Part shown: positions 1 to 25,865 of the stretch, piece after piece
Layout of the letters: every line of letters begins with the position of its first letter
How positions within the stretch are numbered: the first letter of the stretch is position 1
Assembly (NCBI GenBank): GCA_964483025.1
Contig: CAYZZT010000001.1
Location: forward strand, 1-47,887
Source of the DNA: an uncultured Candidatus Saccharibacteria bacterium
Lineage (GTDB): Bacteria > Patescibacteriota > Minisyncoccia > Phycocordibacterales > CAIZIN01
Direction: 5' to 3'
DNA: 47,887 nt
Translations under genes and position numbers: made by a program
The notes under the pieces: generated by a model
What the model was told of the DNA's origin: nothing
Database searches by the model: none
Seen by the model: the letters and a program-made list of their open reading frames with translations, nothing else

Positions 1-63
1 CAGACTAAATTCCAATCTGTTCTTCAAAACCAACAAACCAACCCCAACACCCCAACTACCACC

Positions 64-279
64 ATGAAAGAAAACACTGTATACGCGCTTAAGCTCATTG
101 GATGCATCTTGCTCGGATTCACCTTAGCCTTCGTCGCAATGGCACCCAGAATATGGGCAGCGAGGGAATCGCTCAACGAGATTCGGGCGAAAAGGGAAAT
201 CTTTGAACAGATCAAAAAGGAGGATGAGAAATTCCGCAAGGAACTACGCGAATCCTTTCGTTCTGACAAGGTGAAATAG
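64..279 (+). CDS. small membrane protein, 71 aa, unknown function
   Basis: Intact ORF with one hydrophobic helix (ALKLIGCILLGFTLAFVAMAP) and a K/E-rich tail. A/C-rich leader without SD. Stop TAG 277-279 lies inside a hairpin that precedes hammerhead 1. No family recognised. Confidence 0.5.
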   Translation: MKENTVYALKLIGCILLGFTLAFVAMAPRIWAARESLNEIRAKREIFEQIKKEDEKFRKELRESFRSDKVK

Positions 280-316
280 TGGTAAACCTACTAGGTTCTC
301 GATTAACCTTAAAATC

Positions 317-373
317 GTATCTGTCGGCAAGTGTGTACTTGTCCTGATGAGTCAAAAATGACGAAACAGACCA
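317..373 (+). ncRNA. hammerhead ribozyme, type III (HH1)
   Basis: Stem III 320-324/366-370. GUC cleavage triplet 323-325, cut predicted after C325. Stem I GGCAAG-UGUGUA-CUUGUC 326-343. Core CUGAUGA 344-350. Stem II GUCA-AAAA-UGAC 351-362. GAAA 363-366. All invariant core positions present. Confidence 0.85.
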
Positions 374-1061
374 GATCTTTAATAAAAACAGAAAATTCCT
401 TGCACCAAACCCTGTGCTCACCCCTTCGACAACCTCGCAAAAAAATATTGAGGATCAGGTGGGCTCAGGATTTGGTGCAGGGAGTTGTTGCGACCCCAGA
501 GCACGGAGTGAATAATTTGGGGTGCGGACTCCAAACAAGGGGGAATCGGCGGATTCTTCGGCTCAAGACTGGTAGCTCTTCAAATGGATACACTGGTCAC
601 CGCATGGGAAAAGCCATACACACGAGTTAGGTTTTGTAGGTGGTTGGAGGCTCTAACGCAAGAGCCGTCCGAGAACTGCTTACGAAACCCTGTGATGAGG
701 CAATTTCATGACTGCCTTTTCGATCACAGACTTTATTCTCCCAAAGAGGAAGGGGGAAGTCCCTCTTGTTAACTTGGCAAACCCAGGGGTCTTGTGTCGA
801 ATCAAGATCTCATCGCAACACATTTTCTTGGGTTCCGAAATCCAAGAAAATATTTTCAAAAAAACCGTGGCCTACGTCATCGTAAACGGGCTCGTGATGT
901 CTCTTCCGGAGTATCGCGAGTACGTTCGGAGCAAGTAATTGCTTCGTGGCCTGCTCCCATCGTGAGATGGAAAGCCGAGGTAGAGAAAACTACCTTGTGA
1001 ACAGAAATTTCAACTACTCAATCGAGTACTTGCAATAAATCACGGATAGATTTTCTATCCG
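374..1061 (+). ncRNA. ORF-poor, helix-rich segment between HH1 and HH2; unclassified structured RNA candidate
   Basis: Only short overlapping ORFs in all three plus frames with implausible products; no minus-strand ORF of 60 aa or more between 421 and 1616. Long-range helix 398-414/466-482 (17 bp, one mismatch) encloses helices 416-422/458-464 and 433-436/450-453. Extended hairpin 690-729 and many other local hairpins. No match to tmRNA, RNase P or SRP RNA recognised by eye. Confidence 0.4.
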
Positions 1062-1116
1062 TTACTGTCTCGAAGTGTGTACTTCGACTGATGAGCTTAA
1101 AAAAGCGAAACAGACC
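1062..1116 (+). ncRNA. hammerhead ribozyme, type III (HH2)
   Basis: GUC 1067-1069, cut after C1069. Stem I UCGAAG-UGUGUA-CUUCGA 1070-1087. CUGAUGA 1088-1094. Stem II GCUU-AAAA-AAGC 1095-1106. GAAA 1107-1110. Short stem III 1065-1068/1110-1113 (4 bp). Confidence 0.8.
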
Positions 1117-1585
1117 CTAAACAGCTAAAACTGTTGGGCAAGAAAGTTCTTTAAAATAACAGCTGTAACTCGTCTGTACATGAGAGTGTTTTTATAAACA
1201 TTCTCACGTGCAGGCGAGTGTAGCGCCATAGCATGTGTACTGTGATTAAACATTGTTTTGGTTCATCAAATCGATGAAAACCAAAGCTGTGTACAACCAT
1301 CACACTTTCGACATACCACCAAAAGCATAAACCAGATTAGATAGCAGTCGCTCGAACCCGTCGAGAGCCAACGATTGTTTCATATCTTTTAGTTATGTGA
1401 ATAGGTAGAAGGACCCAAAAACGGTCCGGGTATGTCATGACTCTGAAGGAGAAGGGGACAGTAAGCCTCTTATAAGAGTTATGGAGAGGGCTTGTAGAGC
1501 ATTGGTTGCTCGCTTGTCTAATCTGCTACACACTAATTTTTTTCTTTTGCAAAGTTAAAATCTAACCAAACCAAAACCAAAAACT
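1117..1585 (+). ncRNA. second ORF-free structured stretch downstream of HH2 (leader or ncRNA)
   Basis: No ORF of 60 aa or more on either strand. Long imperfect hairpin about 1171-1220. Long-range pairing cagattagata (about 1335-1347) with tgtctaatctg (about 1517-1530). Several nested hairpins. Ends in an A/C-rich tract aaccaaaccaaaaccaaaaac. Confidence 0.3.
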
Positions 1586-1990
1586 ATGGCCTATTACAGC
1601 ACATTCATATTCCAGTTACCTGGCTGTCCCGAGATTCATTTGAGTACTCGGTACGACATAATTCAGGAGTTCGACCAATGTCGCGGTTTTGGTGGAGGAA
1701 GGATTGCTTTCAAGCCCTTCTATAAACCTAGTCGTCGCATGTGCACGAGCCTGAATTGGGGTGGAGGCAAATCTCCGAGGGTGAAGCTGACTAAAAATCA
1801 GCGGAGAAAGATTCAAACCTTTCTCAAGGTGTTCTACCTCAAGGGTATTCACCACATTCCTCGGAAATACCGAAAGTTCGTAAAGAACGACGGTGTCTTC
1901 CCCCAAGAGTGTCTCCGCTAGGTGCTCTGGGATTGATTGCCTCCACGAGGCAACGGCAAATAATTCGTGGGAGTAGTGAAGCATTTCACT

Positions 1991-2067
1991 GGAGAATAAT
2001 TAAAATATTCTCCTCTCAATTGAGTTCGTCACATGGTGTGGTGGATTCATAGAGAAGTTCTTTAAAA
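1991..2067 (+). other. conserved motif A: hairpin + CAATTGAGTTC-[variable hairpin]-GATTCATAGAGAAGTTCTTTAAAA
   Basis: Hairpin 1991-2013, then conserved blocks 2014-2027 and 2044-2067 around a variable hairpin. Near-identical architecture at 2760-2837. Sits 18 nt upstream of the ORF starting at 2085. Confidence 0.5.
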
Positions 2068-2084
2068 CAAACAAGAGTAAATAT

Positions 2085-2684
2085 ATGAAGACCACACTTA
2101 CATCAGACCGTCTTATCGATTTTTTATTCCTTCTAAGAAAAAAAGGAGTAACTCCAGAAGTATTTGAGAAGTGTTTGGAGAGTAGAATTCTAAACGATGT
2201 GTTCAATCCGGAAGCAAAACTCACGAGCCGTGATGCTTGGCGAGTTGCCTTGGGCTTAGGCAGATATACTTTCATCGTTGACTATAGTATGTCCCTAAGT
2301 AAGATGCTTTTGGATGTTGGTGGATACTGGAACCACGTCGATCGTGATATCAACTCAATAAACTTTCCTATAGTAGGTGAAGGAATTATTGAATATGAGT
2401 TTAGAATTTTCCGGCCACGGGTAAAGACTAGTATGGAGTTGGAAAAAGTGATTAAGCTCATAAAAAGCGAAGACAAACGAAATCCTTGGGGGCCAGCAAA
2501 GATTGAGCATCTTATTGCTTTTGGTGGAAAATTTCCTGAAAAACAACTCAAAGGCAACATTGTCGCTCCTAGCCCGGTTAATATTCATGGAAAGTCAGTA
2601 ATGGTTTTACTTGCGGACGAGCAGGATGTAGACGGGATGATCGATGAACGCTCCATTGAGGTTTGTGGTTGTGACGCCCGCTAG
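2085..2684 (+). CDS. hypothetical protein, 199 aa
   Basis: Longest clean ORF in the hammerhead region with protein-like composition. Antisense ORFs look like shadows. No family recognised. Confidence 0.6.
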   Translation: MKTTLTSDRLIDFLFLLRKKGVTPEVFEKCLESRILNDVFNPEAKLTSRDAWRVALGLGRYTFIVDYSMSLSKMLLDVGGYWNHVDRDINSINFPIVGEGIIEYEFRIFRPRVKTSMELEKVIKLIKSEDKRNPWGPAKIEHLIAFGGKFPEKQLKGNIVAPSPVNIHGKSVMVLLADEQDVDGMIDERSIEVCGCDAR

Positions 2685-2759
2685 TCTGGAAGCCCTAGTT
2701 ACCTTGCGGTTCGTAAAGCCAAGCCTTTAGTTTCGTAGTCGGGAATAAAAAATCTTTTT

Positions 2760-2837
2760 AGCACTTTTTCAAAAGTAAAAAGTGCTTTCAATTGAGTTCT
2801 CAAAATGGTTTGAGAGTTCATAGAGAAGTTCTATAAA
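2760..2837 (+). other. conserved motif B (second copy of motif A architecture)
   Basis: Hairpin 2760-2786. TTCAATTGAGTTC 2787-2799. Variable hairpin tctcaaa/tttgaga 2798-2815. GTTCATAGAGAAGTTCTATAAA 2816-2837. Confidence 0.5.
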
Positions 2838-2840
2838 TTT

Positions 2841-2894
2841 TTGTGTATCCATAGTAAGAATGTTTAATTAAATTTTTTTACTATGGATACACAA
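2841..2894 (+). promoter_or_regulatory. perfect 17-bp hairpin sequestering the start codon of the 2883 ORF
   Basis: ttgtgtatccatagtaa 2841-2857 is the exact reverse complement of ttactatggatacacaa 2878-2894, with a 20-nt loop. ATG 2883-2885 lies in the 3' arm. Confidence 0.6.
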
Positions 2895-3104
2895 AACCAA
2901 AAAGGGGAAAACGCCACCCCGAATTACAAGTTGGCGTTCGTGCTTCTCGCAGTATTTTTTGCAGGGCAGGTGACTGGGTATTTTGCCCATGATCATCCTC
3001 CGGTGAAGAAACCAGCTGAAGTGAATCCTACCCACTTCGATTCTTATTACGAGGATTACGAAGATGGGTACGAAGCTCCTCTTTCGCCCGATGAGGTGAT
3101 TTAG
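2883..3104 (+). CDS. small membrane protein, 73 aa, unknown function
   Basis: ORF with one hydrophobic helix (LAFVLLAVFFAGQVTGYF) and an acidic Y/E/D-rich tail. Same layout as ORF 64-279: stop codon followed by two hairpins and a hammerhead. Confidence 0.5.
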   Translation: MDTQNQKGENATPNYKLAFVLLAVFFAGQVTGYFAHDHPPVKKPAEVNPTHFDSYYEDYEDGYEAPLSPDEVI

Positions 3105-3147
3105 GGGATGGTAGTAAATCTACCAGGTTTGAGAGTTAACCTTAAAA

Positions 3148-3209
3148 CTCTTTCTGTCTCGAAGTGTGTACTTCGGCTGATGATTCCGAAAGGATGAAAC
3201 AGAAACAGT
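3148..3209 (+). ncRNA. hammerhead ribozyme, type III (HH3, variant stem II closing pair)
   Basis: GUC 3156-3158, cut after C3158. Stem I UCGAAG-UGUGUA-CUUCGG 3159-3176. CUGAUGA 3177-3183. Stem II UUCC-GAAA-GGAU 3184-3195, with U-U at the 10.1/11.1 position. GAAA 3196-3199. Stem III 3151-3157/3199-3205 (7 bp). Confidence 0.75.
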
Positions 3210-3353
3210 TCATTGAAAAGCTTGCAAAAGCATGGATACAGCCAAAAGTATTTAATTATTTAAATTCTTCTGGCTGTATCTACCGGGTGGTAAATATAGT
3301 TAACGTTGGTCCAATCGTAAAAACAGGACTCGTATAGCGATAACGTCACCGCT

Positions 3354-3857
3354 TTGTTCATTGTGAAAAATAATCTGATTGCGTTCTACAAAACTATCCT
3401 TGCTTACCTCATTATCGACATCGAGTTTGATAACACAATTTCGGTAATTCTGGATCTTTTCAGGAAATCATCTCCGTCATGGGAGGCGACTGAGGAGAGC
3501 ATTCGGAAACTCCAAGAATGTGTTAATTATCCATCTTTGGTTGAAGATGATAGTGATTGGTCAACCACATTGAATGATTTTATCAAATCGGCATTCAAGG
3601 ATCTTTCGATTCTAAAGAATCCCGAAGCGATGGAGCTCTTTGATGAGTTGGCCAAAAAGTGTCTTCCGACTTTTCGGCACGGTGAAGACATGTTCATCTG
3701 GGCACGTACTATCAAAGAGCGCGTGGGTGGCAGTGCTGTCATCGTGCTCCACGTGAGCGATCTCGAAAGATTTCGCAAGATCATCGAGGAGCATGACCTC
3801 GTGGATGGTTCAACTGAGTGTTACACTCTTGAAGAGTGCATTCAGCTCGGGTCATGA
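3354..3857 (+). CDS. hypothetical protein, up to 167 aa (start uncertain, TTG or GTG)
   Basis: Long ORF with plausible acidic globular composition. No in-frame ATG near the 5' end (candidates TTG 3354, GTG 3363). Followed by an intrinsic terminator. Confidence 0.45.
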   Translation: MFIVKNNLIAFYKTILAYLIIDIEFDNTISVILDLFRKSSPSWEATEESIRKLQECVNYPSLVEDDSDWSTTLNDFIKSAFKDLSILKNPEAMELFDELAKKCLPTFRHGEDMFIWARTIKERVGGSAVIVLHVSDLERFRKIIEEHDLVDGSTECYTLEECIQLGS

Positions 3858-3890
3858 ACCCAAACGCTTTGAAGAACGGCGTACAACTTC

Positions 3891-3927
3891 AACCCCGACT
3901 ATTAATTTAGTTCGGGGTTTTATTTTA
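3891..3927 (+). terminator. intrinsic terminator closing the hammerhead-containing unit
   Basis: aaccccga / ttcggggtt stem followed by a T-rich run ttttatttta. Confidence 0.65.
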
Positions 3928-3945
3928 ATAAATGTTTTGATCATA

Positions 3946-4077
3946 GATTCTCGCATTCGCAAGAATGACAGAAAGGAGGAAATTTATTTTTAAATTTTAA
4001 CAAAATAACCTGGATCCCCGCATTCGCGAGGACGACACAAAATATAGTCATGAATACATTCCTTATTTTGTGTCGTT
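3946..4077. repeat. MITE-like hairpin repeat cluster
   Basis: gattctcgcattcgcaagaatgacag and ctggatccccgcattcgcgaggacgacac modules plus hairpin gacacaaaata...tattttgtgtc. Same family as the loci listed below. Confidence 0.7.
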
Positions 4078-4109
4078 TTTAATTTGAAACGTGGTACAAT
4101 TATTTCATT

Positions 4110-12527: not shown

Positions 12528-14054
12528 TTATCTTGCGTAGTCGATGATGCGTGTTTCGCGGATAGCTGTAACTTTAATTTCTCCCGGATATTTTAGCTCC
12601 TGCTCAATTCTAAGCGCTACATTTCTAGCAAGTTCTTTTGTTTCCACATCACCCATAGCACTAGGATTTATAAATATTCGAATTTCTCGTCCAGCTTGCA
12701 AAGCATATGCTTTTTCAACACCTTCAAATCCTGTTGCAATTTTTTCCAAATCTTCAAGTCTCTTTATATAATTTTCAACACTATCTCGTCTTGCACCTGG
12801 TCGTGAACCAGAAATAGAGTCAGCAACTTGAACAATAATACTTTCAACAGTTTCAAAAGGATATTCTTCGTGATGAGCTTGCATTGCCTTCACAACATCT
12901 TCACTCACATTAAACTTCTGAAGAATTCTTCTTCCAATTTCTACATGTGAGCCAGCAACTTCATGGTCTACAGCTTTTCCAATATCATGAAGAAGCGCAC
13001 CTGCTTTTGTTGTTTGAACATTTGCCCCCATTTCTTGTGCAATCATTCCTGCAATATGCGTCATTTCAATAGAGTGTTGAAGAACATTTTGTCCATAACT
13101 TGTCCGGAAATATAATCTTCCCAAAATACCAAGTAATCGTGGGTCGAGATTGAACACTCCCACTTCGTATGCTGCTTGTTCTCCTTTCTCTTTAATTATT
13201 TTATTGATTTCAAGTTTTGCTTTTTCAATCATTTCCTCAATTTTTGCTGGCTGAATTCTTCCATCAAGAATTAAGTTTTCAAGTGCAAGCCGAGCAACCT
13301 GTCTTCGGATAGGGTCGAATGAAGAAATTGTGATAGCTCCCGGAGTATCATCCACAATAAGTTCAACGCCAGACATTCTCTCGAATGTTTTAATGTTTCG
13401 TCCTTCTTTTCCAATCACTTTACCTTTTATTTCATCACTTGGAATATTTACATGTGTTGTAAATACATCTGATGAAACAGAATTTCCATATCTTTGAATA
13501 CATGTAGCTAAAATATCTTTTGCTTGTTTTTCAATTTTTTCTTGGCCTGTCATTTCAAGCTTTTGCATTCGAATTGCAAGATCTTCCTCAGACTGTTTTT
13601 CTATAATTTTGAAAAGTTCTTGCTTTCCCTCTTCTTTTGTAAGGCCAGCAATTTTTTCAATTTCACCTATTTTTTGTGCTTCAATTTCTGATATTTTCAA
13701 AAGTTCTGCTTCAATTTCAGCATTTTTTTGCTTCATATTATCAGCTTCTTGATCAATATCCACCTGTCTTTTGTCCAAAAGAGACTCTTTGTTTATAAGG
13801 CGCTCTTCTGTTTTTAATAATTTCTCTTCTTTTTCTTTTTGCTCTTCACGGGCAGATTTTGCTAATTCAATAGCATTTTTTTCTGCCTCAAGTGTGATTT
13901 TTTTGGCTTCTTCTCGCGCTCCCAAAAGCATTTCTTTGATGTCTAGCTCCATAGAACCTTTCTTTCCTAAAGAAATGATGAGACGCAAAAAATAACCAAC
14001 GATGACCCCAATGAGTCCCGCGAGGGCTAAGAATATGATTACTTTTAATGTCAT
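12528..14054 (-). CDS. rny: ribonuclease Y
   Basis: N-terminal TM helix, long coiled coil, KH domain (GKEGRNIK), HD domain (LLHDIGK). Confidence 0.9.
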   Translation of the reverse strand: MTLKVIIFLALAGLIGVIVGYFLRLIISLGKKGSMELDIKEMLLGAREEAKKITLEAEKNAIELAKSAREEQKEKEEKLLKTEERLINKESLLDKRQVDIDQEADNMKQKNAEIEAELLKISEIEAQKIGEIEKIAGLTKEEGKQELFKIIEKQSEEDLAIRMQKLEMTGQEKIEKQAKDILATCIQRYGNSVSSDVFTTHVNIPSDEIKGKVIGKEGRNIKTFERMSGVELIVDDTPGAITISSFDPIRRQVARLALENLILDGRIQPAKIEEMIEKAKLEINKIIKEKGEQAAYEVGVFNLDPRLLGILGRLYFRTSYGQNVLQHSIEMTHIAGMIAQEMGANVQTTKAGALLHDIGKAVDHEVAGSHVEIGRRILQKFNVSEDVVKAMQAHHEEYPFETVESIIVQVADSISGSRPGARRDSVENYIKRLEDLEKIATGFEGVEKAYALQAGREIRIFINPSAMGDVETKELARNVALRIEQELKYPGEIKVTAIRETRIIDYAR

Positions 14055-14478: not shown

Positions 14479-15102
14479 ATGGACTCAACAATAATTAATA
14501 ACAAAAGATATGCATTTATAGATGTGCAAAATACTGAAACAACAACGCAAAAATTATTGGGATTTATTGTTGATTGGGAAAAACTCTGTGTATATCTAAA
14601 GGAAAAATGGAAATGTGAAAAGATTTTCTTTTATTCTGGTATTGATGAAGGCGATGAAGAAACCGCTAAAGAATTTGATTCTCTATCTCGTAATGGATGT
14701 ATCGTAAAATCAAAGACAGTCTTTGCATATAAGAAATCAGATAAAACAATTTCAATAAAATGTGTGCATTGTGGCAAAGATAATGTAGAGGTTGTAGATA
14801 TGGGGTATAACAAAAAATCAAATTGTGATGTTGACCTCACTGTTGATGCTATGGATGAAGCTGGAAAAGATAAAGAATTTATAATTTTTTCTGGAGATGG
14901 AGATTTTGAGTATTTAATAAGAAAAATTGTTGAAAAAGGTACAAAGGTTTACGTTGTTTCTTCAAATGCTGGTGTGAGGAAGCCCGGCATTAACACTAAG
15001 AGATTTTCAACGAAGCTCAAGTCTCTTATAGATAACAATAGGGGGAAGATAAACTTTATTGATATTAATAGTTGGAAAATGAAAATACAGAAAACCATAT
15101 AA
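14479..15102 (+). CDS. NYN/LabA-like (DUF88) domain protein with inserted zinc-ribbon-like CxxC
   Basis: YAFIDVQN N-terminal acidic motif, FSGDGDFEYLIRK and KVYVVSS motifs, CVHCGKDN insertion. TACAAT 8 nt upstream of the ATG. Confidence 0.7.
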   Translation: MDSTIINNKRYAFIDVQNTETTTQKLLGFIVDWEKLCVYLKEKWKCEKIFFYSGIDEGDEETAKEFDSLSRNGCIVKSKTVFAYKKSDKTISIKCVHCGKDNVEVVDMGYNKKSNCDVDLTVDAMDEAGKDKEFIIFSGDGDFEYLIRKIVEKGTKVYVVSSNAGVRKPGINTKRFSTKLKSLIDNNRGKINFIDINSWKMKIQKTI

Positions 15103-24596: not shown

Positions 24597-25865
24597 TTAC
24601 GTGATTTCTTCGTCTGTTTGGATTTCTGTATTTGGTTCTGGGTTTTGCTCCACTTCACCTTCTATTACTTCATCCTCAATTGGTGCCTCCTCTTCATTTG
24701 AAAGATTTTCTTCCATAACAGCCACTTCCTCGTCGATACTTTTACCATCTGATTCAACCAGTTCCTCTCCTTTTACAGATTTGATATCAATTTTCCAGCC
24801 AGTAAGCTTTGCAGCTAGACGTACATTTTGTCCTCCTTTACCAATAGCTAAAGACTGTTGATCTTCAGAAACAATCACTGTTGCTTTGTGTTCTGCTTCA
24901 TCTAGCTCAACATTTATAACTTTTGCTGGTGAAAGTGAGTCTTCAATAAACTGTGATGGTTCTTCAGACCATTCAATAATATCAATTTTTTCTCCGGCAA
25001 GCTCACTCATCACTGTCGAAACTCGCACTCCCCGCTGACCCACTAAAGAGCCAACTGGATCAATGTGTGAATCATTTGAAAATGTTGCGACTTTTGAACG
25101 TGAACCGGCTTCTCTTGCAACAGCTTTGATTTCTACTGTACCCGCATTGATCTCTGGCACTTCAGTTGCAAAAAGACCCTCAAGAAACTTTGGATGTGAA
25201 CGAGAAACTTTTAGAAATACACCTTTTGTTGCATCGTCAACTCGGAAAAGATATGCACGAACCCTTTCTCCTTGGCGATATCTCTCTCCGGGAATTTGTT
25301 CTTCATATGGAAGCACAGCAACAGCTCGCCCCATATCTAAATAAATATTTCCTTTTTCAACTCTTTGGACTGTTCCTGAAATAATTTCACCTTCTCTTTC
25401 TCCGTATTCTGAAACGACACTTTCTTTTTCTGCCTCACGAATTTTTTGGATGATAACTTGTTTTGCTGTTTGTGCGGCAATACGCCCAAAGTCAGATTTT
25501 GTCTCAAGAGGGAAGACAACTTCTTCGTCCACAAGAGCTCCTTTTTTAATAAATTTAGCATCTTCTGTTGTGATGTGATGTTCGCTATTGAACCTTATTC
25601 TGTCGTCATCATCGGCGAGCAATTCCTCATCTTCTTCAGGCATAATTACTCTTGATTTATCGACTACGATTTTTACTTGGTAGAAATCGGTTTTTCCTGT
25701 TTCTGGTTCAAATGAACATCGAATAATCTGGCCTTTTTTACCAAATTCTTTTTTATACGCTGTTGCTAGCGCCGCTTCTATTGCCTCTATTATTTTTTCG
25801 CGTGAAATGCCTCGCTCTTCTTCAAGCTGAGCAAATACTGCGCTGATTGCTTTTAGGTCAAACAT
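24597..25865 (-). CDS. nusA: transcription termination/antitermination factor NusA
   Basis: N-terminal domain, S1 domain, KH1 (VGQRGVRV) and KH2 (AIGKGGQNVRLA), acidic C-terminal tail. Confidence 0.9.
   Translation of the reverse strand: MFDLKAISAVFAQLEEERGISREKIIEAIEAALATAYKKEFGKKGQIIRCSFEPETGKTDFYQVKIVVDKSRVIMPEEDEELLADDDDRIRFNSEHHITTEDAKFIKKGALVDEEVVFPLETKSDFGRIAAQTAKQVIIQKIREAEKESVVSEYGEREGEIISGTVQRVEKGNIYLDMGRAVAVLPYEEQIPGERYRQGERVRAYLFRVDDATKGVFLKVSRSHPKFLEGLFATEVPEINAGTVEIKAVAREAGSRSKVATFSNDSHIDPVGSLVGQRGVRVSTVMSELAGEKIDIIEWSEEPSQFIEDSLSPAKVINVELDEAEHKATVIVSEDQQSLAIGKGGQNVRLAAKLTGWKIDIKSVKGEELVESDGKSIDEEVAVMEENLSNEEEAPIEDEVIEGEVEQNPEPNTEIQTDEEIT

What the first reader, a model, noticed from the sequence alone, without database searches (positions are those of the whole stretch)
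1991..2837. Unclassified conserved motif (two copies) upstream of ORFs, plus an AGTTCTTTAAAA-like box after every ribozyme
1991-2067 and 2760-2837 share one layout: a strong hairpin, then CAATTGAGTTC, then a variable hairpin whose sequence differs while pairing is kept (caca/tgtg versus tctcaaa/tttgaga), then (G)ATTCATAGAGAAGTTCTwTAAA. The terminal box AGWTCTTTAAWA also recurs shortly after HH1 (374-385), HH2 (1146-1157) and, more degenerate, HH3 (3208-3219). The 12-mer ggtttgagagtt is shared between motif B and the pre-HH3 hairpin. I could not fit the motif to hammerhead, twister, pistol or hairpin ribozyme cores from memory. Options are a new processing or ribozyme motif, an element-specific promoter, or a protein-binding site with GAGTTC-like direct repeats.
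Basis: seen in the sequence. Interest (0 to 1): 0.6.

Follow-up and report, generated by a model that had tools for sequence, protein, structure and literature searches.

The report
Hairpin-plus-BoxA punctuation of ribozyme operons
The two-copy motif is a real, conserved RNA hairpin that sits between genes exactly where related bacteria carry a self-cleaving hammerhead ribozyme, and the short box after it and after every ribozyme matches BoxA, the known RNA signal that makes RNA polymerase resistant to termination.

Summary
Both window copies (2014-2067, 2786-2838, each preceded by a stable hairpin) belong to a family of at least 15 distinct copies in four lineages of uncultured Patescibacteria. 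One Candidatus Taylorbacteria contig carries about ten, roughly one per intergenic junction. The fold is a 4-bp outer stem, a small internal loop and a stem of 11 bp or more. It is 96% paired, eight pairs show changes on both sides, and the many G-U pairs mean it folds as plus-strand RNA. No Rfam family matches. Downstream of one conserved gene family (ORF 1586-1921), four lineages have this hairpin and four have a type III hammerhead, so the two are interchangeable junction elements. The terminal box (consensus AGWUCUUUNAAAA) matches the published BoxA consensus GYTCTTTAANA exactly at 1146-1156 and 2057-2067. It lies just downstream of 36 of 42 hammerheads and upstream of none. It also follows a twister ribozyme, three operon promoters and every hairpin copy. 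Best reading: each junction combines a 3' hairpin, a boxB-like hairpin that may be a cleavage site, and BoxA, which reloads Nus antitermination factors after the transcript is cut. Self-cleavage by the hairpin is unproven and looks unlikely. Related strains lack 1152-2833, with breakpoints inside the boxes.

The parts
1991..2013 (+). Hairpin 1 of copy A (GGAGAATA-loop-TATTCTCC). It abuts P1. Proposed 3'-end hairpin or weak terminator of the upstream cistron (ORF 1586-1921).
   Evidence: Folds. An equivalent hairpin abuts every copy in relatives. The Taylorbacteria homologue GGAGAATC/GATTCTCC has a compensatory top pair.
2014..2055 (+). Copy A junction hairpin. P1 is 2014-2017 with 2052-2055. 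The internal loop is 2018-2020 / 2050-2051. P2 is 2021-2033 with 2037-2049, loop TGG.
   Evidence: Covariance model R1, 60.4 bits, E 3e-10. Pair counts. MFE folds.
2056..2067 (+). BoxA of copy A (AGTTCTTTAAAA). 2057-2067 is an exact match to GYTCTTTAANA. The ATG of the 199-aa ORF lies 17 nt downstream.
   Evidence: Consensus taken from PMC5725501.
2760..2786 (+). Hairpin 1 of copy B (AGCACTTTTT...AAAAAGTGCT).
2786..2826 (+). Copy B junction hairpin. P1 is 2786-2789 with 2823-2826. P2 is 2793-2804 with 2809-2820, loop ATGG.
   Evidence: R1, 54.3 bits, E 7e-9..
2827..2838 (+). BoxA-like box of copy B (AGTTCTATAAAT; two mismatches to the consensus). It is the right breakpoint of the strain-specific 1682-nt segment.
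373..384 (+). BoxA-like box after hammerhead 1 (AGATCTTTAATA; the GAUCUUU variant seen in B. subtilis rrn).
   Evidence: PMC13753749.
1145..1156 (+). BoxA after hammerhead 2 (AGTTCTTTAAAA; exact consensus at 1146-1156). It is the left breakpoint of the strain-specific segment.
3207..3218 (+). Degenerate BoxA-like box after hammerhead 3 (AGTTCATTGAAA).
19..29 (+). BoxA-like GTTCTTCAAAA in the operon leader, about 95 nt downstream of the consensus promoter found just upstream of the window in L054.
318..372 (+). Type III hammerhead 1.
   Evidence: 39 bits, E 4.7e-6.
1062..1116 (+). Type III hammerhead 2.
   Evidence: 35.5 bits.
3151..3205 (+). Type III hammerhead 3.
   Evidence: 35.9 bits.
1152..2833 (+). 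Strain-specific two-cassette segment: ncRNA + ORF111 + copy A + ORF199 + copy B. It is absent from related lake strains. Both motif copies lie inside it.
   Evidence: Contigs of runs X8 (4160 nt) and X12 (578 nt) join 1151 to 2834.
1586..1921 (+). ORF111, a conserved protein family of unknown fold. Its downstream junction is either this hairpin or a hammerhead in different lineages.
   Evidence: 19 homologues at 49-72% identity. Junction sequences. AF2 pLDDT 67 with no PDB match.

Best explanation
The motif is a composite RNA punctuation module of a long, strongly promoted Patescibacteria operon of small genes and non-coding RNAs. It acts as plus-strand RNA and has three parts.

1. **Hairpin 1.** A sequence-variable, G+C-clamped hairpin ends the upstream cistron. 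It may be a 3' stabiliser or a weak terminator.
2. **Junction hairpin.** It abuts hairpin 1 and is conserved: P1 ACUU/GAGU (UCUC/GAGA in the window), an internal loop of 5'-UAU and 3'-UA, then P2 starting U-A, G-C, A-U, G.U, U-A, U.G, C-G with a variable top. It occupies the place that type III hammerheads hold in sister operons. It resembles the boxB hairpin of rrn antitermination sites. I infer that it is a processing site, most likely cut by a host endoribonuclease rather than by itself.
3. **BoxA.** Next comes AGUUCUUUAAAA, the binding site of NusB/NusE (S10). BoxA nucleates a termination-resistant elongation complex that stays tethered to the nascent RNA.

Proposed logic: every element that creates a new RNA 5' end (promoter, hammerhead, twister, this hairpin) is followed by a fresh BoxA. 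When the transcript is cut, the polymerase can then reload Nus factors and read through the many hairpins and untranslated stretches ahead.

**Shown:** the structure, its covariation and strandedness; positional interchange with hammerheads; the box-to-BoxA sequence match and its strict downstream position; strain-level cassette exchange at the boxes.

**Inferred:** Nus factor binding, the re-tethering logic, and cleavage at the hairpin.
For: **Family and structure.**
- 15 distinct copies score 52-71 bits with model R1.
- 96.4% of cells are paired against 84.6% in shuffles (0/500). Eight pairs change on both sides (2/500). Slid controls reach at most 51%.
- Independent MFE folds agree.
- G.U pairs dominate four positions, so only the + strand folds.

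**Position.**
- All copies are intergenic and co-oriented with the genes.
- Downstream of ORF111 homologues, the window, L138, L147 and L148 carry the hairpin. L141, L142, L145 and L149 carry a hammerhead at the same place.
- L147 has a hammerhead junction and a hairpin junction in one operon.

**Box as BoxA.**
- GYTCTTTAANA (PMC5725501) matches exactly 7 times, all on the operon strand, against about 1 expected. Six of the seven lie directly after a hammerhead or the hairpin; the seventh follows the L145 promoter.
- The GAUCUUU variants match the B. subtilis rrn consensus AUGAUCUUUGAAA, which sits 'immediately downstream' of a small hairpin (PMC13753749).
- The rrn element order is boxB-boxA-boxC (PMC10250234).
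- 36 of 42 hammerheads have the box downstream and 0 of 42 upstream.
- The box also follows a twister, promoters in L145, L056 and L135, and every hairpin copy.
- It precedes non-coding segments too, which argues against a purely translational role.

**Host factors.** NusA and RNase Y are encoded in the window.

**Strain variation.** The 1682-nt indel has its breakpoints in the boxes, in two runs.

**Transcription.** Metatranscriptome contigs identical to the window show parts of the operon are transcribed in situ (491-820, 1220-1478, 2497-2742).
Against: - No experiment or RNA-end data bear on the motif itself. The RNA contigs do not cover it.
- NusB and RNase III were not found in the 47-kb window. 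No RNase III signature was seen.
- Copy B's box deviates from the BoxA consensus at two positions, and the box after hammerhead 3 is degenerate.
- In E. coli the rrn boxB hairpin is dispensable. That leaves the strong sequence conservation of this hairpin's base unexplained.
- BoxA after the hairpin could simply be inherited from a hammerhead+BoxA ancestor. In that case it says nothing about cleavage.
- One L138 copy sits directly after a promoter, where no cut would be needed.
Confidence: 0.55

Rival explanations
1. The P1/P2 hairpin, with its flanks, is a new class of small self-cleaving ribozyme that replaces the hammerhead.
For: It stands at the same junction as hammerheads downstream of one gene family. 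It lies in ribozyme-rich operons that also hold twister. Ribozyme neighbourhood is how twister-sister, pistol and hatchet were found (PMC6765202). It is followed by BoxA, like the true ribozymes. The near-invariant internal loop is flanked by conserved pairs.
Against: It is a simple hairpin with a 3/2-nt internal loop. Conserved nucleotides are almost all base-paired. The loops of P2 and hairpin 1 are not conserved, so no pseudoknot or second docking loop is available. No match to hammerhead, twister, twister-sister, pistol, hatchet, hairpin or HDV models appears even at E<=10 on 160-210-nt slices. One copy lies right after a promoter.
Confidence: 0.1
2. There is no cleavage. Hairpin 1 plus the U-rich ACUUUAUU is an intrinsic terminator or attenuator. 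P1/P2 plus BoxA is only an rrn/nut-like antitermination site, or a 5'-UTR regulatory or stabilising hairpin bound by an unknown protein. It sets how much polymerase continues into the next gene.
For: Hairpin 1 plus ACTTTATT is flagged as terminator-like in four L138 copies. A hairpin followed by BoxA is the rrn arrangement. A promoter-proximal copy exists. Sequence conservation inside helices is typical of protein-recognised RNA.
Against: The window copies fail the simple terminator rule (4 T in the tail). In most copies the U-rich tract is needed as the P1 strand. Only one internal promoter was found in 5 kb of L138, so read-through must be the rule. This reading does not explain why the element swaps with self-cleaving ribozymes.
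Confidence: 0.22
3. The box is not BoxA. It is an A/U-rich translational enhancer or ribosome standby site (like the T7 gene 10 epsilon leader), or an RNase Y/E entry site that begins each 5' UTR.
For: The box lies 17-60 nt upstream of many start codons, often before SD-less CA-rich leaders. Phage hammerheads are also followed by A/U-rich leaders such as AACTTTAA. RNase Y is encoded in the window.
Against: Many boxes precede several-hundred-nt non-coding segments rather than ORFs. The distance to the preceding helix is tight (about 3-9 nt) while the distance to start codons varies. The match to two independent published BoxA consensus sequences is closer than to any enhancer that I could test.
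Confidence: 0.08
4. The motif acts at the DNA level as a recombination site of mobile gene cassettes, like an integron attC site. The box would be the crossover core.
For: The element is an imperfect palindrome with a conserved base and a variable top at the 3' end of each cassette. Related strains differ by a two-cassette indel with breakpoints inside the boxes. A truncated copy next to an inserted promoter cassette in L138 looks like a recombination scar.
Against: The stem relies on G.U pairs, which become C.A mismatches on the other strand. No integrase lies near any hairpin-bearing locus. The box does not fit GTTRRRY. The same box follows hammerheads, twister and promoters, which are RNA- or transcription-level elements. 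The crossover maps to TAAA, not G/TT. Homologous exchange at conserved junctions explains the indel.
Confidence: 0.04
5. The motif is a promoter for the downstream gene.
For: Copy B contains TTGAGA-16-TATAAA, which the tool reports as TTGAGA-18-TAAATT, 9/12.
Against: Copy A and the relatives have no such hexamers. The conserved positions covary as RNA pairs. A true TTGACA-17-TATCAT promoter lies upstream of one full copy.
Confidence: 0.01

Closest known systems
rrn operon antitermination sites (boxB hairpin - boxA - boxC; E. coli rrn leader and spacer; B. subtilis rrn leader hairpin + boxA)
   Same: A hairpin is followed at once by a single-stranded G(Y/A)UCUUU(A/G)AA box. It lies in a transcript rich in untranslated structured RNA and recurs within one operon (leader and spacer in rrn). 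The sequence matches GYTCTTTAANA and AUGAUCUUUGAAA.
   Different: Here it recurs at every cistron boundary of a small-gene/ncRNA operon and after every ribozyme. The hairpin has a strongly conserved base and internal loop and swaps with hammerheads. No boxC was identified. Binding of Nus factors is untested.
Phage lambda nut sites (boxA + boxB, N protein) and HK022 put RNAs
   Same: They are cis-acting RNA modules of a hairpin plus, for nut, BoxA. They convert RNA polymerase to a terminator-resistant form within mobile or phage-like operons (from established knowledge; PMC10250234).
   Different: The order is hairpin then BoxA, not BoxA then boxB. No N-like protein is identified. There are many copies per operon.
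Clustered hammerhead ribozymes flanking genes in prophage operons (Perreault et al. 2011, PMC3088659)
   Same: The elements are intergenic and co-oriented and punctuate a polycistronic transcript. The genes between them vary. Hammerheads with the same GUGUGUAC loop occur in 26 IMG/VR contigs.
   Different: The hairpin has no hammerhead core and no Rfam match. The BoxA partner of these ribozymes appeared in none of the papers found here.
Phage T7 early-region RNase III processing hairpins (R0.3-R1.3)
   Same: They are repeated intercistronic hairpins of an upper stem of about 10-12 bp, an internal loop and a lower stem. They cut a polycistronic mRNA into units and leave a 3' hairpin (from my own knowledge, not tested here).
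   Different: Cleavage here is only inferred. RNase III was not found in the window. The hairpin is shorter, with P1 only 4 bp stacked on hairpin 1.
BoxA upstream of suhB, CRISPR arrays and other non-rRNA targets (Baniulyte et al. 2017, PMC5725501)
   Same: BoxA is used outside rRNA to control Rho-dependent termination of poorly translated RNA.
   Different: Those cases have a single BoxA per transcript and no association with ribozymes or repeated junction hairpins.

Membership tests
BoxA (NusB/NusE binding element) | Sequence consensus GYUCUUUAANA (gamma-proteobacteria) or AUGAUCUUUGAAA (B. subtilis rrn) | tested here: met
   Exact GYTCTTTAANA at window 1146-1156 and 2057-2067 and five sites in relatives (7 against about 1 expected). 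Family consensus AGWUCUUUNAAAA from 37 hammerhead-linked and 13 hairpin-linked boxes. Copy B and the box after hammerhead 3 are degenerate.
BoxA (NusB/NusE binding element) | Lies in the nascent RNA downstream of the promoter, single-stranded, often right after a hairpin (boxB) | tested here: met
   It follows promoters in L145, L056 and L135. It is left unpaired in MFE folds. It starts 0-9 nt after hammerhead stem III or P1.
BoxA (NusB/NusE binding element) | Same element present in the organism's own rrn leader or spacer; genome encodes NusB, NusE, NusG and NusA | not testable with these tools
Only NusA was seen in the window.
BoxA (NusB/NusE binding element) | Binds the NusB/NusE heterodimer and confers terminator read-through | not testable with these tools
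   Needs biochemistry or a reporter assay.
Hammerhead ribozyme (any type) | Three-way junction with CUGANGA and GAAA cores and an NUH cleavage site | tested here: not met
   The motif has one helix only and neither core. No hammerhead hit at E<=10 on the motif slices.
Twister / twister-sister / pistol / hatchet / hairpin / HDV-like ribozymes | Match to the Rfam covariance model (conserved core plus pseudoknots or junctions) | tested here: not met
   No hit at E<=10 with the most permissive filters. Nothing at E<=0.05 anywhere in L138.
Intrinsic terminator | G+C-rich hairpin followed directly by a U-run | tested here: inconclusive
   Hairpin 1 plus ACTTTATT passes the simple rule in four L138 copies. 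The two window copies do not pass.
Sigma-70 promoter | -35 and -10 hexamers at 16-18 bp spacing, conserved among copies | tested here: not met
   Only copy B has a 9/12 match. None is conserved across copies.
Integron attC site | R''/R' cores RYYYAAC / GTTRRRY, folding of the bottom DNA strand, an integron integrase nearby | tested here: not met
   The box is GTTCTTT. The stem needs G.U pairs, so the bottom strand would carry C.A mismatches. No integrase is called in hairpin-bearing loci.
RNase III processing hairpin | About 20 bp of helix with an internal loop; cleaved by RNase III; the enzyme is encoded by the host | tested here: inconclusive
   The helix of 4 + 11-14 bp with a 3/2 internal loop, stacked on hairpin 1, fits. 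No RNase III signature is in the window. The genome was not searchable.

The most novel reading that the evidence does not exclude
The P1/internal-loop/P2 hairpin is a minimal new self-cleaving ribozyme, or the dedicated site of a new endoribonuclease, that has replaced hammerheads in some Patescibacteria. The BoxA that follows every ribozyme then reveals a general rule: co-transcriptional RNA self-cleavage severs the tether of the antitermination complex, so a new BoxA must follow each cut.
Probability: 0.1. Interest if true: 0.9.

Novelty: new variant of a known kind. Interest (0 to 1): 0.68.

Why it matters
The biological role of bacterial hammerhead and twister ribozymes is still largely open (PMC6765202).

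- **A dense natural system.** These Patescibacteria operons have a ribozyme or a conserved hairpin at almost every gene boundary. Each is coupled to a BoxA-like element.
- **A testable link.** This ties RNA self-cleavage to Nus-factor antitermination: a cut transcript needs a new BoxA. I found no report of this link in the papers I could search.
- **A new RNA family.** The hairpin is not in Rfam and stands in for a ribozyme at equivalent positions. That makes it a prime candidate for cleavage assays. A negative result would also be informative, because it would show that the ribozyme can be replaced by a non-catalytic structure.
- **Wider reach of BoxA.** BoxA would extend into the candidate phyla radiation and into cassette-like, strain-variable operons.

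Tried and rejected
**Searches for the motif elsewhere.**
- The 16-mer TTCATAGAGAAGTTCT gave 53 IMG/VR hits, all coding-region chance matches.
- GAGTTC-gap-TTCATAGAGAAG gave 47 IMG/VR hits, none real.
- The single JGI metagenome scan returned two chance coding hits.
- A degenerate family pattern found nothing in IMG/VR.
- These elements therefore do not look like common phage sequences in those collections.

**Known RNA families.** Rfam was run at gathering score, at E<=10 on 4.5 kb, and at E<=10 on two short slices. Only noise fell on the motif; the best hit was the Vg1 Mn ribozyme at 20.9 against 90 bits.

**Ideas checked by eye and dropped.**
- Hairpin-ribozyme loop A (AGAA / N*GUC): the substrate-like strand is not conserved between copies.
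- A micro-ORF starting at the loop AUG: 10 codons in A, 2 in B.
- A pseudoknot between loops and the box: the loops are not conserved.
- The box extending hammerhead stem III or pairing with stem II: this fits only some copies.
- A sigma-70 promoter, and a promoter for the antisense ORF 1616-1984. ORF111 on the + strand is the conserved gene: it has 19 homologues, against 5 weak ones for the antisense frame.

**Function of ORF111.** Pfam and PHROGs found nothing. The AF2 model has pLDDT 67 and no PDB fold match.

**RNA-end evidence.** Only three low-depth metatranscriptome runs hold parts of the operon, and none covers the motif.

Full report
**1. What is in the window**

Positions 1-3900 are the + strand of one operon. 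The window begins inside it. A Logan contig of the same strain (L054) extends upstream. It shows a perfect TTGACA-17-TATAAT promoter about 80-105 nt before window position 1, preceded by genes for DksA/TraR-like, unknown and TrmB-like proteins.

The operon holds small ORFs (71, 111, 199, 73 and 167 aa) with no Pfam or PHROG match. It also holds long non-coding stretches and three type III hammerheads at 318-372, 1062-1116 and 3151-3205. These score 35-39 bits at E about 1e-5, below Rfam's gathering score. It ends at a canonical terminator near 3885-3925. The rest of the window is ordinary Patescibacteria chromosome: comM, RNase Y, NusA, trigger factor, type IV pilus genes, and TIM/PGK. Earlier notes of this scan also place the genome in Patescibacteria.

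**2.

The two copies share CAATTGAGTTC and TTCATAGAGAAGTTCT exactly, and neither word occurs elsewhere in the window. Both fold much better than shuffles on the + strand. The 12-mer shared with the region before hammerhead 3 is real. The terminal box is present after all three hammerheads. As a bare pattern it is not significant in the window.

**3. Finding relatives**

Direct pattern scans of IMG/VR and the JGI metagenomes gave only chance hits in coding regions. The way in was through proteins.

- The 199-aa protein has a single distant homologue.
- The 71-aa protein has three relatives on short contigs that are full of hammerheads.
- The upstream TrmB-like protein led to three syntenic loci in other Patescibacteria genomes. 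Each has hammerheads next to the gene, and one also has a twister-P1.
- ORF 1586-1921 (ORF111) was decisive. Gene callers had missed it in favour of an antisense frame. It has 19 homologues at 49-72% identity, against 5 weak ones for the antisense frame.

I fetched contigs for seven ORF111 homologues. The junction downstream of this gene is of two kinds. In L141, L142, L145 and L149 it is hairpin - type III hammerhead - box. In the window, L138 (a Candidatus Taylorbacteria MAG contig), L147 and L148 it is hairpin - the motif - box.

L138 carries the motif at about ten junctions over 4.5 kb, roughly one per intergenic gap. It has no Rfam-detectable ribozyme. L147 has a hammerhead junction and a motif junction in the same operon on its other strand. 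The motif and the hammerhead are therefore interchangeable junction elements.

**4. Anatomy of the motif**

Fourteen copies were aligned (A2) and a covariance model was built (R1). Searching all relevant loci returned 15 distinct full copies at 52-71 bits (E 1e-9 to 1e-13). It returned nothing in the hammerhead-only loci or in phage contigs.

The best-supported structure (RNAalifold agrees) is:
- P1, 4 bp: ACUU/GAGU (UCUC/GAGA in the window, a change on both sides of the first pair).
- An asymmetric internal loop: 5'-UAU, 3'-UA.
- P2, 11 bp or more. It starts with U-A (C-G in two of the 15 copies), then G-C, A-U, G.U, U-A, U.G, C-G, then a freely varying top and loop.

The counts are 96.4% of cells paired against 84.6% in shuffles (0/500). 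Eight pairs change on both sides (2/500). The covariation score is 0.526 against 0.286. Slid registers reach at most 51%. A second register with a bulged U and a 7-bp P1 is nearly as good (93.3%). Four positions are mostly G.U, so the reverse strand could not form the helix. This is plus-strand RNA.

A sequence-variable, G+C-clamped hairpin abuts P1 with 0-1 nt between them in nearly every copy. The exception is one L138 copy, where a TTGACA-17-TATCAT promoter with an extended -10 takes its place. The loops of P2 and of hairpin 1 are not conserved, so I see no pseudoknot. No Rfam family matches, even at E<=10 on 160-210-nt slices.

**5. The box is BoxA**

Across 14 loci, 36 of 42 hammerheads have G(A/U)UC(U/A/C)UU within 45 nt downstream, usually 3-9 nt after GAAAC-AG. 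None has it within 45 nt upstream, and the background is 4.5%. The consensus is AGWUCUUUNAAAA for both hammerhead-linked and hairpin-linked boxes.

This matches BoxA, the RNA site bound by NusB/NusE that nucleates antitermination complexes.
- Baniulyte et al. searched genomes with GYTCTTTAANA (PMC5725501). That 11-mer occurs exactly at window 1146-1156 and 2057-2067 and at five places in relatives. All are on the operon strand. Six are directly after a hammerhead or the hairpin and one follows a promoter. About one match is expected by chance.
- A 2026 study gives the B. subtilis rrn consensus as AUGAUCUUUGAAA, lying immediately downstream of a small hairpin (PMC13753749). This fits the GAUCUUU variants here, for example AUGAUCUUUAAAA in L149 and AAGAUCUUUGAAG in L142.
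- In rrn operons the order is boxB hairpin, boxA, boxC, and boxA is necessary and sufficient to form the complex (PMC10250234).

The box also follows a twister-P1 in L142 and the operon promoters of L145 (33 nt after TATACT, exact consensus), L056 and L135. A BoxA-like GTTCTTCAAAA lies in the window's own leader at 19-29. Many boxes precede several hundred nucleotides of non-coding RNA rather than an ORF. This fits antitermination better than translation. NusA is encoded in the window.

**6. How it most likely works**

The shown facts are that a promoter, a hammerhead, a twister or this hairpin is each followed at once by BoxA, and that BoxA is always on the 3' side of the ribozyme cut.

The antitermination complex stays attached to the polymerase through the nascent RNA that carries BoxA (established knowledge; PMC10250234). 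Self-cleavage would sever that tether. I therefore infer that a new BoxA after every cut lets Nus factors reload. The polymerase can then read through the many stable hairpins and untranslated stretches of this operon.

- A 3' hairpin for the upstream RNA.
- A conserved boxB-like hairpin that stands in for the ribozyme.
- BoxA.

Whether the hairpin is itself a cut site is open. Its shape recalls the RNase III sites between phage T7 early genes: an upper stem of about 11-14 bp, a small internal loop and a short lower stem stacked on a neighbouring helix. This comparison comes from my own knowledge and was not tested. RNase Y is encoded in the window and no RNase III signature was found there. 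Conservation sits mostly inside helices, which suggests recognition by a protein rather than a catalytic core. I put self-cleavage at about 10%.

**7. Strain variation**

Contigs from two lake metagenome runs of a related strain, about 1.6% diverged, join window 1151 directly to 2834 (4160-nt and 578-nt contigs). The missing 1682 nt contain the ncRNA, ORF111, copy A, ORF199 and copy B. The breakpoints fall inside the BoxA after hammerhead 2 and the box of copy B.

The same strain replaces 3005-3093, and it replaces everything between hammerhead 3 and the terminator (3204-3891) with other sequence. Another run shows a hammerhead joined to 3235, and a hammerhead-3-like element followed by AGATCTTTCAAAC. 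One run holds a third, partial copy of the hairpin (2019-2052, three differences) with a different downstream sequence.

The genes are therefore cassettes that are exchanged at the conserved junction modules. The window's two hairpin junctions probably arrived together from a hairpin-type lineage into a hammerhead-type operon. Homologous exchange at the boxes is enough to explain this. An integron-like mechanism is unlikely, given the G.U-dependent stem, the absence of an integrase and the wrong core sequence.

**8. Comparison and novelty**

BoxA and boxB-boxA sites are known, and so are clustered hammerheads in prophage operons (PMC3088659). I found nothing in the searchable literature on hammerheads in Patescibacteria, or on BoxA coupled to ribozymes.

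Three things appear to be new:
- The hairpin family, which is not in Rfam.
- Its one-for-one exchange with hammerheads.
- The systematic BoxA after every ribozyme.

I class this as a new variant of a known kind.

**9. Limits**

- All functional statements are inferences from sequence.
- The alignment has 15 copies, ten of them from one contig, so the covariation counts are not independent events.
- The regular expressions used for hammerheads and boxes condition part of the consensus.

Noticed in passing
window 296-325 and 3125-3158; also L132-L134: Upstream of hammerheads 1 and 3 lies an H-type pseudoknot. The loop of the AGGTT-N6-8-AACCT hairpin (TCGATT / GAGAGTT / AAGATT) is complementary to the stretch just before CTGTC (AATCGA / AACTCT / AATCTT). 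It covaries between copies and relatives.
   Followed up: partly
L138 303-360, 871-930, 4699-4755: There are three copies of a roughly 55-nt element, GTAATTCT-hairpin-GCGCCTGACGAGCGGAAACTGTT. It has hammerhead-like words (CUGACGAG, GAAAC) but no standard stem II and no Rfam hit. It could be another ribozyme variant or a relic.
   Followed up: partly
L054 2424-2452 (about 80-105 nt upstream of window position 1): A perfect sigma-70 consensus promoter, TTGACA-17-TATAAT, drives the operon. The window starts inside the transcript.
   Followed up: yes
window 3920-4082: This short intergenic stretch reaches word depths of 50-330 in lake metagenomes, against 3-9 for its flanks. Many different sequences adjoin it, so it is a high-copy dispersed repeat shared by many genomes.
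   Followed up: no
L056 2598-4594: The only homologue of the 199-aa protein (42% identity) lies next to a diversity-generating retroelement (bAvd + reverse transcriptase). It has an Asn-rich, variable-region-like C-terminus. Its promoter is followed 9 nt later by AAGTTCTTTGTAA, which is BoxA-like.
   Followed up: partly
L135 5461-5529; L142 1088-1147: Twister-P1 ribozymes (51-54 bits, below the gathering score) sit among hammerheads in the same operons. The L142 copy is followed by TGTTCTTTTAAAAAA.
   Followed up: partly
L133 890-920; L136 5922-5986: tRNA-like or tmRNA-like 3' ends (GGTTCAAATCCCC...CCACCA; tmRNA model hit E 4e-21 over 65 nt) lie between hammerheads in related operons.
   Followed up: no
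L141 2639-2693: The hammerhead downstream of an ORF111 homologue has the core TTGAGGAG instead of CTGATGAG (29.6 bits). It is probably inactive, and a near-BoxA still follows it.
   Followed up: no
window 2841-2894: The ATG of the 73-aa ORF lies in the 3' arm of a perfect 17-bp hairpin directly after copy B's box. In the short-form strains the same hairpin directly follows the BoxA of hammerhead 2.
   Followed up: partly
window 1157-1585 and homologous stretches in L138, L141, L142, L145 and L149: A conserved non-coding leader (GTCGCCTGCAC...GTGCAGGCGAGTGTAGCGCCATAGCATGTG) precedes every ORF111 homologue. Metatranscriptome contigs cover 1220-1478.
   Followed up: no
window 12528-14054 (-), 14479-15102 (+), 24597-25865 (-): RNase Y, an NYN-domain nuclease and NusA are encoded in the window. 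They are candidate trans-acting factors for the junction modules.
   Followed up: no
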